Positions 22,496 through 57,903 of a stretch of 57,903 nucleotides of DNA are shown in pieces (position 1 is the stretch's first letter; each line of letters opens with the position of its first letter). The stretch is from assembly GCA_964594755.1 (NCBI GenBank), contig CAZQMO010000006.1:1-57903 (forward strand). Reading direction: 5' to 3'. The DNA comes from an uncultured Candidatus Saccharibacteria bacterium. Its GTDB lineage: Bacteria > Patescibacteriota > Doudnabacteria > UBA920. The position numbers and the translations under genes are program-made. The notes beneath the pieces are model-generated. The model saw nothing but the letters and a program-made list of their open reading frames with translations. It was not told where the DNA came from and did no database searches.

Positions 22496-22603
22496 TGTCA
22501 TTCCTGGCGCGCTTCACGAAGTGAAGGCCGACCGGGAATCCATTAGACTTCTAGTGGATCCCCGGTTCTCGCCGCTTTACAAGCGACTCGCCCGGGGATG
22601 ACA
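22496..22603. repeat. 108-bp palindromic element, TGTCATTCC...GGGATGACA ends
   Basis: Same termini and GGGAATCC/GGATCCC core as 1885-1950, with longer internal hairpins. Confidence 0.85.
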
Positions 22604-37699: not shown

Positions 37700-39097
37700 A
37701 TGCAGCCTATAATTGCGCATATAGATATGAATTCGTATTTTGCCACCTGCGAACAGCAGGATAATCCGTCGTGGCGTGGCAAGCCGGTCGGGGTGTGTGA
37801 ACACCTTGGCGGGATTATTATTGCAGCCAGTATAGAGGCAAAACGTTGGGGGATTAAGACCGGCACTCCGGTTTGGGAAGCGCGCAAGCTGTATCCGCAG
37901 GTTATCTTAACTAAAACTAACCCAGACCGTTATCGGTTCTATACTGCGCGGTTTTTAAGAGTGTTCGCAGATTATACCGACCGTATAGAAAAGTACAGCA
38001 TAGACGAGGCGTTTTTGGATTTAAGCAAGGCCTGCAATATTCGCGTGCCGGTTTCTAAAAACCCCCCTCCTTTTAAGGAGGAGTTGGGGGAGGTGAATTC
38101 TCACCCTCACCCAACCTCCCCCTCAAGAGGGGGAGGAGTTACATATGAATACGTTGATCCTTGGGAAGAAGCTATGCGGGTGATTGGTGAGATTAAGTTA
38201 AGAATGAAGACCGAAGTCGGGGATTGGATTACTTGCAGCGCTGGCGTTTCTTATAGTAAGTTGGTGGCAAAGATTGCTTCGGATTTGCAAAAACCAGATG
38301 GCTTGGTGGTTGTCCGACCAGAAGATAAAGCCAGTTTGTATGAAAGATTGGAATTAACTGACATTCCGGGGATTGGTAATCGTCAAAAACGTAATTTAAA
38401 TAAGCTGGGAATTTTTACACTCACAGATTTGCGCGATTACCCGCTCAGTAAATTAGTAACGCATTTTGGTATCGGCGGTTATCATTTGCACAGTATGGGT
38501 CAACTCGAAGGCAGTTGGAAGGAAGGTTTTGGTGATGATCCGCCAGCTGGCGGAGTAGCTTCACCAATGAAATCTATGGGCCATATGTACACTGTGCCGC
38601 TAGAGTATCGTAAAAAAAATATCATGCGACCAGTTTTGTATAAACTTTCGGAGATGGTCGCAGCACGCTTGCGGATTAATGGCTTAATGGGTAATCAGAT
38701 TTATGCACACGCATATAATGGCAATGAAGTTCACGCTGGTCGTGGCGCCAAGATTGGTTATTATGTTCAGGATGGCCGAGATATTTATTTGGAAGCTTTA
38801 GCTTTGCTACGCGCTACTGCGAGTTTGCGAGAGTTAGAAACTAATACTTATTTTGTAGGTGTCACAGTTGGCGGTTTAATGCCTTATTACCCGCAAGCTA
38901 GTTTATTTGAAGATAAACCTCGCCGCGAACGCCTGGCTGCAGCTTTGGATAAAATTAATCAAAAGTATGAGGATTTTACTGTGGCGCGCGTGCCAGCGTT
39001 TTTGGCGCGCGATATTATTCGCGACAGCGTTGGGTTTGGTCGTATGAAAGAATTCAAAACTACATTTATGAAAGGCGGACATGGACGGTTTCGGTAA
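37700..39097 (+). CDS. dinB: Y-family DNA polymerase IV
   Basis: HIDMNSYFA, AASIEAK, SIDEAFLD, KIASDLQKPDG, IPGIG. Confidence 0.93.
   Translation: MQPIIAHIDMNSYFATCEQQDNPSWRGKPVGVCEHLGGIIIAASIEAKRWGIKTGTPVWEARKLYPQVILTKTNPDRYRFYTARFLRVFADYTDRIEKYSIDEAFLDLSKACNIRVPVSKNPPPFKEELGEVNSHPHPTSPSRGGGVTYEYVDPWEEAMRVIGEIKLRMKTEVGDWITCSAGVSYSKLVAKIASDLQKPDGLVVVRPEDKASLYERLELTDIPGIGNRQKRNLNKLGIFTLTDLRDYPLSKLVTHFGIGGYHLHSMGQLEGSWKEGFGDDPPAGGVASPMKSMGHMYTVPLEYRKKNIMRPVLYKLSEMVAARLRINGLMGNQIYAHAYNGNEVHAGRGAKIGYYVQDGRDIYLEALALLRATASLRELETNTYFVGVTVGGLMPYYPQASLFEDKPRRERLAAALDKINQKYEDFTVARVPAFLARDIIRDSVGFGRMKEFKTTFMKGGHGRFR
38062..38137. repeat. In-frame palindromic insert in dinB (PPPFKEELGEVNSHPHPTSPSRGGG)
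   Basis: Hairpins CTCCTT/AAGGAG and CTCCCCCTC/GAGGGGGAG flank GTTGGG..GGTGA/TCACC..CCCAAC; lies just after SIDEAFLD. Confidence 0.75.
38539..38554. repeat. 16-bp perfect palindrome TCCGCCAGCTGGCGGA in dinB
   Basis: One base from TCCGCCAACTGGCGGA found in all three tRNA-derived repeats. Confidence 0.7.
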
Positions 39098-52268: not shown

Positions 52269-52331
52269 ATTGTTTAGTTAATAATCTTGGCTCCAGTATA
52301 ACAAAAAATCGCCCCGAAGGCGATTAGTTAT

Positions 52332-52406
52332 TGGCTGGGGTACCAGGATTCGAACCTGGGAATGAGCGGACCAAAACCGCTTGCCTTACCACTTGGCTAT
52401 ACCCCA
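52332..52406 (-). tRNA. tRNA-Gln (TTG), CCA encoded
   Basis: TGGGGTA acceptor, AGCGG-TTTTGGT-CCGCT anticodon arm, CCAGG-TTCGAAT-CCTGG T arm, TACCCCA-G-CCA; 75 nt. Confidence 0.97.
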
Positions 52407-52530
52407 TTACGTTAAATTTTTCACTGACCTGGCTATTTGTCCGCTGAGCGGACCTCTATGATGAACGGCTTACCGGCGTAAGCCTATGGCGCTTGCCTAC
52501 CTCCGCCAGTTGGCGGATGGCTATACCCCA
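52407..52530 (-). repeat. tRNA-Gln-derived 124-bp repeat unit A
   Basis: Retains tRNA blocks TGGGGTATAGCCA, GGTA-GGCAAGCG, GTCCGCTCA and CCAGGT in order, separated by three hairpins; lacks the TTCGA loop and acceptor 3' strand. Confidence 0.88.
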
Positions 52531-52552
52531 ATAATTTTCAATTAGCCTTGAT

Positions 52553-52581
52553 ATGATACCGAAAATACTGGTTTTTGGCAA
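52553..52581 (-). promoter_or_regulatory. Promoter for repeat unit A plus tRNA-Gln
   Basis: Minus strand TTGCCA(52581)-17-TATCAT(52558-52553). Confidence 0.7.
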
Positions 52582-52631
52582 GAATGCGCGCGTTTTTGTA
52601 TGGTATAATTTACCTATATTTAACAAGATTT

Positions 52632-55552: not shown

Positions 55553-56734
55553 ATGAAACAGGGAAGTAAGACAACTAAAAAGCGCGTACTTATGGCGCTT
55601 TCAGGCGGAATTGATTCTGCTGTTTCGGCGTATTTGCTGCAAAAAGCGGGTTACCAAGTTGAAGCCGCATTTATGAAAAACTGGTCCTCAACGGCTGGTT
55701 TAAAATATTCAGATTGTCCTTGGCTGATTGACCGCCAAGATGCGTTGCGCGTGGCTGCTCATTTGGGTATCCTTATGCACACAGTGAACTACGAAAAAGA
55801 ATATAAAAAGAGCGTAATGGATTATTTCTTTAAGGAATATCAGGCAGGACGCACGCCGAATCCCGATGTGATGTGCAATAAAGAAATCAAATTCAAAGTT
55901 TTATACAACTGGGCCATGAAGAACGGTTTTGATTACGTGGCAACCGGTCATTACGCCCAAGTCAAAAAAATAAAAAATAAGGCAGGGGAGGATTACCAAC
56001 TTAAGCGAAAATCCTCTGTCATTCCCGCGAAGGCGGGACTCCAGATTCCGAATCAAGCTCAGGATCACAATGGGTATACTTACCAACTCGTGCGGAGCAA
56101 AGATGAATTCAAAGATCAAACTTACTTCATTTATAATATCCAGCAATCACAACTCCCCCACTTGCTGTTCCCTATCGGCTCAAAGAAAAAATCCGAGGTT
56201 CGCGCTTTGGCCAAGAAGCTTAAGCTTCCGAATGCGGATAAAAAAGAAAGCATGGGGCTCTGCTTTGTGGGTCAGATTCGCTTAAAAGATTTTTTGTCAC
56301 AAAAAATTAAACCAAAAACCGGCCCAGTTGTTACCCAAGATGGCCAAAAGATTGGCGAGCATCAAGGCTTGCCGTATTACACGATTGGCCAGCGCCAAGG
56401 GATTAACGTTGGTCAAGGCGGACCCTGGTATGTGGTGAGCAAGAATCTAAAAACTAATACTTTGGTAGTTACCAATGACCCTAATGATCCGGCTTTGCAG
56501 ACTAAGGAGATTGAAATTCATAGCGTAAATTGGATTAGCAAGCCGCAATCATTTCCAGCTAAGCTTGTTGGTCGCTATCGCCATCAAGGCCAATTAGAAA
56601 AACTGACCATTATTCCAAAGGGCCGCAACCATTATGAAGTTAAGTTTGCCAAGCCTCAGACAGCTGTAGCTAGTGGCCAAAGTTTGGTGCTATACGACAA
56701 AAAAGTCTGCGTGGGCGGCGGGGTAATAAACTAA
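55553..56734 (+). CDS. mnmA: tRNA 2-thiouridylase MnmA
   Basis: SGGIDS PP-loop, TPNPDVMCN, ATGHYA, KDQTYF, ESMGLCF, YYTIGQRQG, SGQS. Confidence 0.97.
   Translation: MKQGSKTTKKRVLMALSGGIDSAVSAYLLQKAGYQVEAAFMKNWSSTAGLKYSDCPWLIDRQDALRVAAHLGILMHTVNYEKEYKKSVMDYFFKEYQAGRTPNPDVMCNKEIKFKVLYNWAMKNGFDYVATGHYAQVKKIKNKAGEDYQLKRKSSVIPAKAGLQIPNQAQDHNGYTYQLVRSKDEFKDQTYFIYNIQQSQLPHLLFPIGSKKKSEVRALAKKLKLPNADKKESMGLCFVGQIRLKDFLSQKIKPKTGPVVTQDGQKIGEHQGLPYYTIGQRQGINVGQGGPWYVVSKNLKTNTLVVTNDPNDPALQTKEIEIHSVNWISKPQSFPAKLVGRYRHQGQLEKLTIIPKGRNHYEVKFAKPQTAVASGQSLVLYDKKVCVGGGVIN
55993..56088. mobile_element. 87-bp in-frame insertion in mnmA carrying a TGTCATTCCCGCGAAGGCGGG palindromic element
   Basis: TTACCAACT direct repeat at 55993-56001 and 56080-56088; element at 56017-56069 resembles 1885-1950. 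Confidence 0.85.
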
Positions 56735-57607: not shown

Positions 57608-57636
57608 TTGAAAATAACTGCAATCTAGATTATAAT
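57608..57636 (+). promoter_or_regulatory. sigma70 promoter upstream of the tRNA-derived array
   Basis: TTGAAA(57608)-17-TATAAT(57631). Confidence 0.75.
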
Positions 57637-57644
57637 AGTCCTAC

Positions 57645-57699
57645 TGTCATTCTGGCAGCTACAAACGAGCCGTAGGCGAGTGCGGGCTAGCCGGAATCT
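57645..57699. repeat. Half copy of the TGTCATTC...GGAATC palindromic family
   Basis: ATTCTGGC/GCCGGAAT stem enclosing GCC-GTA-GGC; no terminal GACA. Confidence 0.6.
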
Positions 57700-57711: not shown

Positions 57712-57903
57712 TGGGGTATAGTCATCCGCCAACTGGCGGAGGTAGGCAAGCGCCATAGGCTTACGCCAGTAAGCCGTTAATCTTAGAGGTCCGCTTTGAG
57801 CGGACAAATAGCCAGGTCAGTTAAAAATTGAAATCGATGGGGTATAGCCATCCGCCAACTGGCGGAGGTAGGCAAGCGCCATAGGCTTACGCCAGTAAGC
57901 CGT
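57712..57903 (+). repeat. Tandem tRNA-Gln-derived repeat units B (57712-57837) and C (57838 to window end)
   Basis: 126-bp period; near-identical to the reverse complement of 52407-52530. Confidence 0.9.

What the first reader, a model, noticed from the sequence alone, without database searches (positions are those of the whole stretch)
52407..52530. A tRNA-Gln 5' fragment inflated by three hairpins sits in the leader of the intact tRNA-Gln
Seen: on the minus strand the unit reads TGGGGTATAGCCA [TCCGCCA-AC-TGGCGGA] GGTA-GGCAAGCG [CCATA GGCTTAC-GCCG-GTAAGCC GTTCATCATAGAG] GTCCGCT-C-[AGCGGAC AAATAG] CCAGGT. The real tRNA reads TGGGGTATAGCCA AGT GGTAAGGCAAGCG GTTTTG GTCCGCTCA TTC CCAGGT. The tRNA blocks are collinear, and the hairpins occupy the D-loop, the anticodon loop and the variable loop. 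The unit lies between a TTGCCA-17-TATCAT promoter and the mature tRNA. Known: tRNA-linked repeats such as those at E. coli tyrT usually duplicate tRNA 3' ends. Inference: this unit is co-transcribed, and its TGGGGTA could compete for the tRNA's 3' TACCCCA or act as an RNase P decoy, giving a processing switch or a separate small RNA.
Basis: partly seen in the sequence, partly recalled or inferred. Interest (0 to 1): 0.85.

Follow-up and report, generated by a model that had tools for sequence, protein, structure and literature searches.

The report
Repeated tRNA-Gln-derived leader RNA module
The "inflated tRNA fragment" is real. It is one copy of a repeated, structured RNA module derived from the front half of tRNA-Gln, and it sits in one to four or more tandem copies between the promoter and both tRNA-Gln genes in a small clade of tiny-genome (Patescibacteria-like) bacteria, where no described RNA family matches it.

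Summary
The unit at 52530-52407 (-) exists exactly as described. It is not a one-off. Two more copies lie in tandem at 57712-57903 (+), where the contig ends inside the array. By synteny with relatives, that array precedes the second tRNA-Gln gene (CUG).

In related genomes (MnmA 70-77% identical) homologous units lie upstream of 14 of 22 tRNA-Gln genes, in 1 to 4 or more tandem copies, and nowhere else in 289 kb searched. The conserved core is:
- tRNA nt 1-30;
- CCAUAGG, hairpin P2, CCGUU-N6-7-AGA;
- tRNA nt 36-43, locked into hairpin P3;
- a variable AU-rich tail.

P2 and P3 show compensatory changes (7 of 13 pairs; 0 of 500 shuffles). The tRNA-derived blocks follow the sequence of the adjacent tRNA. 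The core is 71-97% identical between species whose MnmA third codon positions are 45-49% identical. Hairpin 1 (D-loop) is not conserved.

There is a promoter upstream, no terminator between unit and tRNA, and a terminator after the tRNA. No Rfam family matches.

Best reading: a co-transcribed, self-folding pre-tRNA-Gln leader module under selection, removed by RNase P. Whether it regulates maturation, acts as a released small RNA, or is merely a neutralised scar of recombination at tRNA-Gln remains open.

The parts
52553..52581 (-). Sigma-70-like promoter TTGCCA-17-TATCAT upstream of the unit
   Evidence: 10 of 12 matches. Analogous promoters precede the first unit in relatives (read).
52531..52552 (-). 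Short 5' leader between the -10 box and the unit
   Evidence: Its role as transcribed leader is inferred from the promoter position.
52407..52530 (-). Leader unit u1 (124 nt): tRNA-Gln-derived module plus tail
   Evidence: Covariance model R1 scores 85.3 bits on the core at 52433-52497.
52518..52530 (-). Copy of tRNA nt 1-13 (5' strand of acceptor stem and 5' strand of D stem)
   Evidence: 13/13 identical to the tRNA.
52502..52517 (-). Hairpin 1 (TCCGCC-AACT-GGCGGA) inserted in the D-loop. A lineage-specific insertion, not part of the conserved core.
   Evidence: Absent from internal units of L012 and L019 and from L006-CTG, L022-CTG and L014. Replaced by about 95-nt or 29-nt inserts elsewhere.
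52490..52501 (-). Copy of tRNA nt 17-29 (end of D-loop, 3' strand of D stem, 4 nt of the 5' strand of the anticodon stem), with one A deleted
52467..52489 (-). Invariant CCAUA motif plus hairpin P2 (GGCUUAC-GCCG-GUAAGCC)
   Evidence: Six different P2 sequences in relatives all fold as hairpins. Covariation.
52455..52466 (-). Junction GUU-CAUCAU-AGA (conserved ends, variable middle)
52439..52454 (-). Hairpin P3. Its 5' arm is a copy of tRNA nt 36-43 (GGUCCGCU). Its 3' arm AGCGGAC is a novel complement.
   Evidence: 99% of cells paired and 4 pairs with compensatory change.
52407..52438 (-). AU-rich tail or spacer. It contains CCAGGT at 52432-52427, a relic of the 5' strand of the T stem (tRNA nt 48-53).
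   Evidence: The tail varies between loci and species.
52332..52406 (-). Intact tRNA-Gln(UUG) with encoded CCA
52307..52325 (-). Intrinsic terminator-like hairpin with T-run after the tRNA
57608..57636 (+). Promoter TTGAAA-17-TATAAT of the second locus
   Evidence: 11 of 12 matches.
57646..57698 (+). Palindromic GTCATYC...GRATC element inside the leader of the second locus
57712..57837 (+). Unit u2 (126 nt), 93% identical to u1. Differences lie in hairpin loops and the junction.
   Evidence: (80.2 bits).
57838..57903 (+). Unit u3, truncated by the end of the contig. By synteny, tRNA-Gln(CUG) is expected beyond it.
   Evidence: 37.6 bits, cut at the 3' end. Synteny. The window is the whole contig.

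Best explanation
The unit is one member of a lineage-specific family of structured RNA modules. The family arose from a partial copy (about nt 1-54) of tRNA-Gln and now lives in the 5' leaders of both tRNA-Gln genes.

Shown here:
- It occurs in 1 to 4 or more tandem copies between a promoter and the tRNA, with the terminator only after the tRNA.
- Its core is tRNA nt 1-30, then CCAUAGG-P2-CCGUU-N6-7-AGA, then tRNA nt 36-43 folded into P3.
- P2 and P3 are kept by compensatory substitutions.
- The tRNA-derived blocks follow the sequence of the adjacent tRNA (concerted evolution).
- Copy number and presence vary between close relatives.

Inferred:
- The module is transcribed with the tRNA.
- RNase P, cutting at tRNA +1, releases leader and unit(s).
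- P3 locks up the copied 3' strand of the anticodon stem, and P2 replaces the anticodon loop. The copy therefore folds on itself as a compact, nuclease-resistant RNA and does not mispair with the real tRNA.
- The one copied segment left free, the 5' acceptor strand, can still pair with the tRNA's 3' end. The module can therefore slow or redirect RNase P processing, and each unit boundary is a potential RNase P site.
- Arrays grow and shrink by slippage or unequal exchange between the 12-30-nt tRNA-identical blocks.

I consider a cis-acting leader module, with a released unit RNA as by-product or effector, the most likely reading. Its physiological role is not established.
For: - Three copies in the window.
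- The contig ends inside the array, and another contig (L008) starts and ends inside units.
- Conserved synteny places a tRNA-Gln(CUG) gene just beyond the window end.
- Units lie upstream of 14 of 22 tRNA-Gln genes in 12 genomes.
- Covariance model R1 finds 25 true hits, all in tRNA-Gln leaders, and none elsewhere in 289 kb.
- Covariation: 7 of 13 pairs have changes on both sides, 93.5% of cells are paired, 0 of 500 shuffles reach the observed values, and slid controls give 26-59% paired. Six unrelated P2 sequences all form hairpins inside invariant flanks.
- The unit follows its tRNA. L006-TTG: tRNA has TATCGCC, CACGG and CCGTG; the unit has the same blocks and P3 is GTCCGTG-C-CACGGAC. L014-TTG: tRNA has TGTCGCC and ACCGT; P3 is GGTACCG-TGG-CGGTACC.
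- The core is 71-97% identical between species whose MnmA third codon positions are 45-49% identical.
- Promoters and terminator.
- A 'young' plain copy of tRNA nt 1-57, without hairpins, in L022-TTG shows how such units start.
- The folding model shows the unit's 5' strand can compete for the tRNA's 3' strand.
Against: - There are no expression data. Transcription, RNase P release and RNA stability are inferred.
- The module is dispensable and patchy. It is absent from both loci in L013 and L025 (whose tRNA-Gln(UUG) is 100% identical to the window's) and from one locus in each of L014, L017 and L021.
- Degenerate forms exist. L024 lacks P2 and the 5' arm of P3. L021 lacks the invariant motifs.
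- Identity to the tRNA can be explained by gene conversion alone.
- tRNA-Gln loci in this clade carry other recombination scars: 3' partial copies and a serine-recombinase element. A scar origin without a host function is therefore credible.
- Other tRNA genes of these genomes could not be examined, so specificity for tRNA-Gln is unproven.
- Energies for very large multiloops are unreliable, so the competition probabilities are only indicative.
Confidence: 0.5

Rival explanations
1. A neutral or tolerated recombination scar. tRNA-Gln is a hotspot for site-specific or illegitimate recombination in this clade. A partial 5' copy (nt 1-54) was left upstream and later broken up by small palindromic insertions. 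It survives because the insertions shorten the direct repeats that would otherwise delete it. It is homogenised with the tRNA by gene conversion and has no function of its own. Any selection acts only to keep it harmless.
For: - The 5' copies end in the T-loop and the 3' copies begin there.
- A plain young copy of nt 1-57 plus two 3' partial copies flank L022-TTG.
- A large serine recombinase element, and three different 3' flanks among near-identical strains, lie at tRNA-Gln(CUG).
- Palindromic elements insert freely in these genomes, even in frame in MnmA.
- Presence is patchy, copy number varies and degenerate forms exist.
Against: - P2 and P3 keep pairing through multiple compensatory changes, inside invariant single-stranded flanks.
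- The core is far more conserved than synonymous sites.
- Direct repeats of 12-30 nt should delete single units readily, yet units persist at both loci across species.
- No copy of the X/P2 module occurs elsewhere, as would be expected of a mobile palindrome.
Confidence: 0.25
2. A trans-acting tRNA-Gln mimic. RNase P, guided by the tRNA's own 3' half pairing in turn with each unit's UGGGGUA, cuts the array into unit RNAs. These act as decoys or sponges for a factor that recognises the D-arm and anticodon-stem side of tRNA-Gln, for example an anticodon nuclease, a modification enzyme or an aminoacylation factor. The cleavable or decodable anticodon loop has been replaced by P2.
For: - Every unit starts exactly at tRNA position +1 with the cognate acceptor strand, including the L014 variant UGGGGUG.
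- The D-arm and anticodon-stem strands follow the cognate tRNA.
- The anticodon loop is precisely replaced.
- Tandem arrays would multiply the dose.
- The homologue lacking TGGGG (L017/L020) starts at the predicted transcription start, so it would need no 5' cut.
- The folding model allows the register shift.
Against: - No partner is known and there are no expression data.
- P3 competes with an anticodon-like stem, and mismatches in that stem are tolerated (L004, L020).
- The acceptor 3' strand and the T-arm are missing, so most tRNA-binding proteins would not bind.
- Gene conversion explains the tracking without any need for mimicry.
Confidence: 0.13
3. A DNA-level element. The hairpins are recognition sites (cruciform or single-stranded DNA) for a recombinase or transposase, and the arrays are tandem pseudo-attachment sites or products of repeated integration and excision at tRNA-Gln.
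For: tRNA-Gln genes here are integration targets. Hairpin structure is conserved while sequence varies, as in integron attC sites or IS200/IS605 ends.
Against: - No recombinase gene lies between or beside the units in the window or in most relatives.
- Loops of 1-4 nt are too short for tyrosine-recombinase cores.
- The units are always in the sense orientation inside the transcription unit.
- No copies were found in IMG/VR viral contigs.
Confidence: 0.07

Closest known systems
tRNA-linked repeats of the E. coli tyrT operon and their RtT RNA (Rfam RF00391). Cited from my own knowledge; Rfam was scanned here.
   Same: Tandem repeat units sit inside a tRNA transcription unit. Each unit carries a short segment identical to the adjacent tRNA. 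They are co-transcribed with the tRNA, and their RNA is released by tRNA processing.
   Different: The tyrT repeats lie downstream and copy the 3' 19 nt of tRNA-Tyr. Here the units lie upstream and copy nt 1-30 and 36-43 (originally about 1-54) of tRNA-Gln. They carry covarying hairpins and occur at both isoacceptor genes in several species. No Rfam hit.
Spacer-derived RNAs of tRNA operons, such as the 3'ETS-leuZ sponge of E. coli (own knowledge: Lalaouna et al. 2015)
   Same: A functional or stable RNA is cut out of a pre-tRNA transcript by the tRNA-processing enzymes.
   Different: Those spacers are not tRNA copies and are not tandemly repeated. No target or partner is known here.
Partial tRNA duplications flanking integrated elements (att sites; own knowledge: Williams 2002)
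   Same: Partial tRNA copies next to an intact tRNA, with breakpoints in the T-loop or anticodon loop. Such 3' copies, and a serine-recombinase element, occur at tRNA-Gln in relatives.
   Different: att duplications are 3' parts separated from the gene by the element. Here 5' parts lie 20-50 nt upstream, in tandem, inside the transcription unit, with conserved structured inserts.
Type III toxin-antitoxin antitoxin arrays (ToxI; own knowledge)
   Same: Tandem arrays of structured RNA repeats, transcribed as a precursor and cut into units.
   Different: ToxI repeats are 34-45 nt and precede a toxin endoribonuclease gene. Here the downstream gene is a tRNA and no toxin gene is linked.

Membership tests
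tRNA (Rfam RF00005) | Complete cloverleaf: both acceptor strands, D arm, anticodon arm and T arm | tested here: not met
   ARAGORN and Rfam call only the intact gene at 52332-52406 and not the unit, even at E<=10. The unit lacks the T-loop, the 3' strand of the T stem, the 3' strand of the acceptor stem and the anticodon loop.
tmRNA or other tRNA-like RNAs in Rfam | Match to a curated covariance model or to the ARAGORN tmRNA search | tested here: not met
   No match in the window or in three related loci.
RtT RNA / tyrT-type tRNA-linked repeats | Repeats downstream of the tRNA that contain its 3'-terminal segment; match to RF00391 | tested here: not met
   The units are upstream and copy the 5' part. 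No Rfam hit.
att-site partial tRNA duplication | A 3' partial copy separated from the intact tRNA by an integrated element that encodes an integrase | tested here: not met
   The copy is a 5' part, 20 nt from the tRNA, with no ORF between. True 3' copies and a recombinase element exist separately in relatives.
CRISPR array | Short identical repeats alternating with unique spacers | tested here: not met
   Whole 111-126-nt units, tails included, are repeated nearly identically within an array.
MITE / REP-type dispersed palindromic elements | Many dispersed copies in intergenic DNA, independent of one gene | tested here: not met
   Model R1 finds the core only in tRNA-Gln leaders across 289 kb. 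blastn finds no other copy in the window. Hairpin 1 alone has one near-copy at 38539-38554.
Type III TA antitoxin array | Tandem RNA repeats followed by a terminator and a toxin endoribonuclease gene | tested here: not met
   The array is followed directly by tRNA-Gln and then a terminator. The neighbouring genes are a PD-(D/E)XK protein (divergent) and a membrane protein.
Riboswitch or attenuator leader | Aptamer plus an expression platform (terminator/antiterminator) before the regulated gene | tested here: inconclusive
   No Rfam riboswitch matches. P3 has no U-tract. P2 is followed by a weakly U-rich GUUxAU that the crude scan flagged once. No alternative pairing is supported by covariation.
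Structured non-coding RNA under selection (generic) | Helices maintained by compensatory substitutions across species | tested here: met
   7 of 13 pairs have double-sided changes and 0 of 500 shuffles reach the observed values. The slid controls are far lower. RNAalifold agrees.

The most novel reading that the evidence does not exclude
The arrays are biogenesis cassettes for a new class of tRNA-Gln-mimic small RNAs. The single downstream tRNA's 3' half acts as a built-in guide, pairing in turn with each unit's copied acceptor strand. RNase P then cuts the leader into unit RNAs with exact tRNA-like 5' ends. These anticodon-less mimics act in trans, for example as decoys for a factor or nuclease that targets tRNA-Gln.
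Probability: 0.12. Interest if true: 0.85.

Novelty: new variant of a known kind. Interest (0 to 1): 0.62.

Why it matters
tRNA leaders are usually short, unstructured and unconserved. Here a 5' partial tRNA copy has become a conserved, covarying, tandemly amplifiable RNA module at both genes of one amino-acid family, in bacteria with very small genomes where non-coding DNA is scarce.

If functional, it would be a new way to tune tRNA maturation, or to make tRNA-mimic RNAs using RNase P. It would also be a candidate new RNA family for Rfam.

If it is a scar, it is a clear case of how partial tRNA duplications arise, are neutralised by hairpins and evolve in concert with their gene.

Practically, these repeats break assemblies. 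The window and contig L008 both end inside them. They can also hide the second tRNA-Gln gene from MAG annotations.

Tried and rejected
1. Exact 19-mer GGTAGGCAAGCGCCATAGG against the GTDB species genomes gave three chance hits only.
2. A block pattern with variable gaps against the metagenome contigs gave 0 hits. A second, motif-based pattern gave 4 true loci and 2 chance hits.
3. Viral contigs gave 0 hits, then one chance hit inside a coding region.
4. Exact-protein look-ups of two window proteins found nothing on record.
5. Tandem Repeats Finder missed the terminal array because fewer than two full copies lie in the window.
6. Rfam at E<=10 and E<=1 found no family for the units, the D-loop inserts or the longer leader modules.
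7. A closing helix between the unit's 5' end and its tail (GG.UAU/AUA.CC in the minimum-free-energy fold) is rejected. It is absent from L012-TTG, L006-TTG and L014 units.
8. An anticodon-like stem (27-30 with 40-43) as the selected structure is rejected in favour of P3. L004 and L020 carry mismatches in that stem while P3 stays perfect.
9. Coding potential is rejected. The period is 124 or 126, there are indels between copies, and the overlapping ORFs are short and not conserved.
10. Literature searches found no description of such leaders.
11. Taxon names could not be obtained for the close relatives. The nearest named MnmA homologue is from a 'Patescibacteria group bacterium' at 65% identity.

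Full report
**1. The observation**

It is followed at 52406-52332 by an intact tRNA-Gln(UUG) with encoded CCA (Rfam tRNA 63.4 bits).

Unit and tRNA share four collinear blocks:
- TGGGGTATAGCCA;
- GGTA-GGCAAGCG;
- GGTCCGCTCA;
- CCAGGT.

A gapped local alignment scores 45.75, against 20.3 +/- 4.1 for 2000 shuffles (z = 6.2). The three insertions are perfect hairpins at 52517-52502, 52484-52467 and 52453-52439. The unit folds with z = -3.2.

A TTGCCA-17-TATCAT site lies at 52581-52553. The only terminator-like site, 52325-52307, follows the tRNA.

**2. It is a repeat family, not a single duplication**

Searching the hairpins and the 5' block in the window turned up two more copies on the plus strand, in tandem. 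They lie at 57712-57837 and 57838-57903, with period 126 and 93-98% identity to the first unit. They follow a TTGAAA-17-TATAAT site at 57608-57636.

The window is a whole contig, so the assembly breaks inside this array.

MnmA (55553-56734) served as a synteny anchor for fetching related contigs. The gene order is conserved: PBP1, ClpP, tRNA-Gln(UUG, minus), PD-(D/E)XK, DUF8173, YbaB, MnmA, small ORFs, tRNA-Gln(CUG, plus). In every relative a tRNA-Gln(CUG) lies where the window ends. The terminal array is therefore almost certainly the leader of the second tRNA-Gln gene. This is an inference from synteny.

**3. Relatives**

Homologous units lie upstream of 14 of 22 tRNA-Gln genes in 12 genomes.

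| Genome | UUG locus | CUG locus |
|---|---|---|
| L012 (GCA_022842405.1; MnmA 73% identical) | 4 or more units | 2 units |
| L019 | 3 units | not in the locus held |
| L004 | not in the locus held | 1 unit |
| L006, L022, L024 | 1 unit | 1 unit |
| L014 | 1 unit | none |
| L017, L021 | none | 1 unit |
| L013, L025 | none | none |

L013 and L025 (MnmA 69% and 67% identical) have plain 20-nt leaders. This holds even though L025's tRNA-Gln(UUG) is identical to the window's.

A covariance model of the core found 25 true hits in 289 kb, and all are in tRNA-Gln leaders. One further contig (L008) starts and ends inside units.

No Rfam family matches the units or the surrounding leaders. There are no copies in IMG/VR.

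**4. Anatomy from comparison**

The conserved core is, in order:
- tRNA nt 1-30, identical to the adjacent tRNA;
- CCAUA;
- hairpin P2, always closed by GG...CC;
- GUU-N6-7-AGA;
- tRNA nt 36-43;
- a short loop and a complement that completes hairpin P3;
- a variable AU-rich tail of 20-45 nt.

*P2.* It has six unrelated inner sequences: GGCUUAC/GUAAGCC, GGCCUCGC/GCGACGGCC, GGUCCC(C)GC/GCGGGACC, GGACUUGC/GCAAGGCC, GGCCUGC/GCAGGCC and GGUCUGCC/GGCAGGCC. All fold as hairpins inside invariant flanks.

*P3.* It changes together with the anticodon stem of the cognate tRNA:
- GUCCGCU/AGCGGAC (the common form);
- GUCCGUG/CACGGAC (L006-UUG);
- GGUACCG/CGGUACC (L014-UUG);
- GGUCCGC/GCGGACC (L020).

*Covariation.* On the model-based alignment:
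- 7 of 13 pairs show changes on both sides;
- 93.5% of cells pair;
- none of 500 shuffles reaches any measure;
- sliding the partners drops pairing to 26-59%.

RNAalifold on an independent MAFFT alignment finds the same two helices.

*Conservation.* The core is 71-97% identical between the window and species whose MnmA third codon positions are only 45-49% identical. The core is therefore either under purifying selection or recently exchanged.

**5. What is not conserved**

- Hairpin 1 (D-loop) is present in all three window copies and in L006-UUG. Internal units of L012 and L019, and the units of L006-CUG, L022-CUG and L014, have an intact D-loop. The first units of the L012, L004 and L019 arrays instead carry an insert of about 95 nt. 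L024 carries a 29-nt insert.
- The CCAGGT block does not follow the CUG tRNA, whose T stem is CUAGG. It is missing from the L012-UUG tails. It looks like a relic of an origin from the UUG gene.
- The copied acceptor strand is missing in L017/L020, where the unit begins at TATAGCC just after a TATAAT box. It is mutated in L024-CUG.
- An anticodon-like 4-bp stem is possible, but it carries mismatches in L004 and L020 while P3 stays perfect.

**6. Origin**

L022-UUG has a plain copy of tRNA nt 1-57 (98% identical), with an intact anticodon arm, 46 nt upstream of the gene. It also has two 3' partial copies downstream and long leader-trailer inverted repeats.

Other 3' partial copies lie downstream of tRNA-Gln genes in L013, L014 and L012. 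A large serine recombinase element abuts tRNA-Gln(CUG) in L022, L023 and L009. Strains with identical MnmA have three different 3' flanks.

tRNA-Gln is therefore a recombination hotspot in this clade, with breakpoints in the T-loop. The canonical unit is best seen as an old copy of nt 1-54 that acquired loop insertions.

Mosaic units show exchange between the two loci:
- L019's last UUG unit is of the CUG type;
- L024's UUG unit has a CUG-type anticodon-stem block;
- both loci of a genome tend to share one P2 variant.

**7. How it most likely works**

*Shown:* the position inside a promoter-to-terminator unit, helices kept by selection, and concerted evolution with the tRNA.

*From established knowledge:* RNase P cuts at tRNA +1 and so releases everything upstream.

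*Inferred:*
- P3 sequesters the copied 3' strand of the anticodon stem, and P2 replaces the anticodon loop. The copy therefore folds on itself.
- The free copied acceptor strand can still pair with the tRNA's 3' end. A ViennaRNA equilibrium model gives that pairing p = 0.92 in the window precursor, 0.59-0.98 in the other canonical single-unit precursors (0.04 for L022's plain copy), and 0.16-0.26 in arrays. Energies for such large multiloops are unreliable.
- This pairing could delay maturation, or let RNase P cut at unit boundaries.

I rank the readings as follows:

| Reading | Weight |
|---|---|
| Cis-acting leader module, with a possible released RNA | 0.5 |
| Tolerated recombination scar | 0.25 |
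| Trans-acting tRNA-Gln mimic or decoy | 0.13 |
| DNA-level recombination site | 0.07 |

**8. Comparison with known systems, and limits**

The nearest analogue is the tyrT tRNA-linked repeats with their RtT RNA. Those are downstream and copy the tRNA's 3' end, and Rfam gives no match here.

The module is not a tRNA, a tmRNA, a CRISPR array, a dispersed palindromic element, a type III antitoxin array or an att duplication. Each defining feature was tested and not met.

I file it as a new variant of tRNA-operon-embedded repeats and a candidate new RNA family.

Limits:
- there are no expression data;
- only tRNA-Gln loci could be sampled, so specificity for tRNA-Gln is unproven;
- the taxon is known only as Patescibacteria-like.

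Noticed in passing
window 56018-56047 (inside MnmA, 55553-56734): MnmA carries a 29-aa in-frame insert (…KRKSSVIPAKAGLQIPNQ…) created by a palindromic element, tgtcattcccgcgaaggcgggactccagat. Relatives have different inserts at the same site, or an insert elsewhere in the protein.
   Followed up: partly
window 22497-22540, 22557-22602, 57646-57698: Copies of a GTCATYC…GRATC palindromic element family (3 matches against 0.02 expected). One copy lies inside the transcribed leader of the second tRNA-Gln locus. Similar elements sit in the leaders of L012 and L014.
   Followed up: partly
window 38539-38554 (inside ORF 37700-39097): A perfect 16-nt palindrome, TCCGCCAGCTGGCGGA, one mismatch from hairpin 1 of the unit, lies within a coding region.
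   Followed up: no
L022 3792-4281 (also L023): tRNA-Gln(UUG) is flanked by a plain 5' copy (nt 1-57, 98%), two tandem 3' partial copies and long leader-trailer inverted repeats. Each 3' copy is preceded by the hairpin CCGGAGCTTGTCTCCGG. The inverted repeats are 18 nt (94%) and 29 nt (79%) and would enclose the tRNA in a long stem.
   Followed up: partly
L022 10923-12565; L023 9211-10853; L009 from 5306: A large serine recombinase (Resolvase, Recombinase, Zn_ribbon_recom) plus an HTH_17 gene lie directly 3' of tRNA-Gln(CUG). Strains with identical MnmA (L006/L007, L009, L010) have three different sequences right after the CCA end.
   Followed up: partly
L012 20813-20838; L013 6023-6038; L014 5412-5427: Isolated 3' partial tRNA-Gln copies (T-loop to CCA) lie 0.2-8 kb downstream of tRNA-Gln genes. 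A recurring flank, (a/c)ctcgggctagc…, follows the CCA end at several tRNA-Gln genes. Both are suggestive of att remnants.
   Followed up: no
L006 12700-12880; L022 4290-4420 and 10520-10745; L024 5425-5700 and 11560-11790: Further conserved, apparently structured leader modules of about 120-200 nt lie upstream of the units (for example CCAAACUUUCGCUUGGGCC…CAAGGUUAAGUGAAAGUUUGAGAGGAGAAAU…AAUUUGGACGA). They are exchanged between the two loci. No Rfam match.
   Followed up: no
window 52553-52604: The tRNA promoter and a promoter-like site for the divergent PD-(D/E)XK gene overlap back to back, sharing the palindromic TTGCCAA/TTGGCAA -35 region.
   Followed up: no
L017 5505-5520; L020 3420-3440; L012 6467-6476: Runs of N or NN scaffold gaps fall exactly at the repeated tRNA 5' blocks. 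The window and L008 both end inside units. These repeats systematically break or confuse short-read assemblies.
   Followed up: partly
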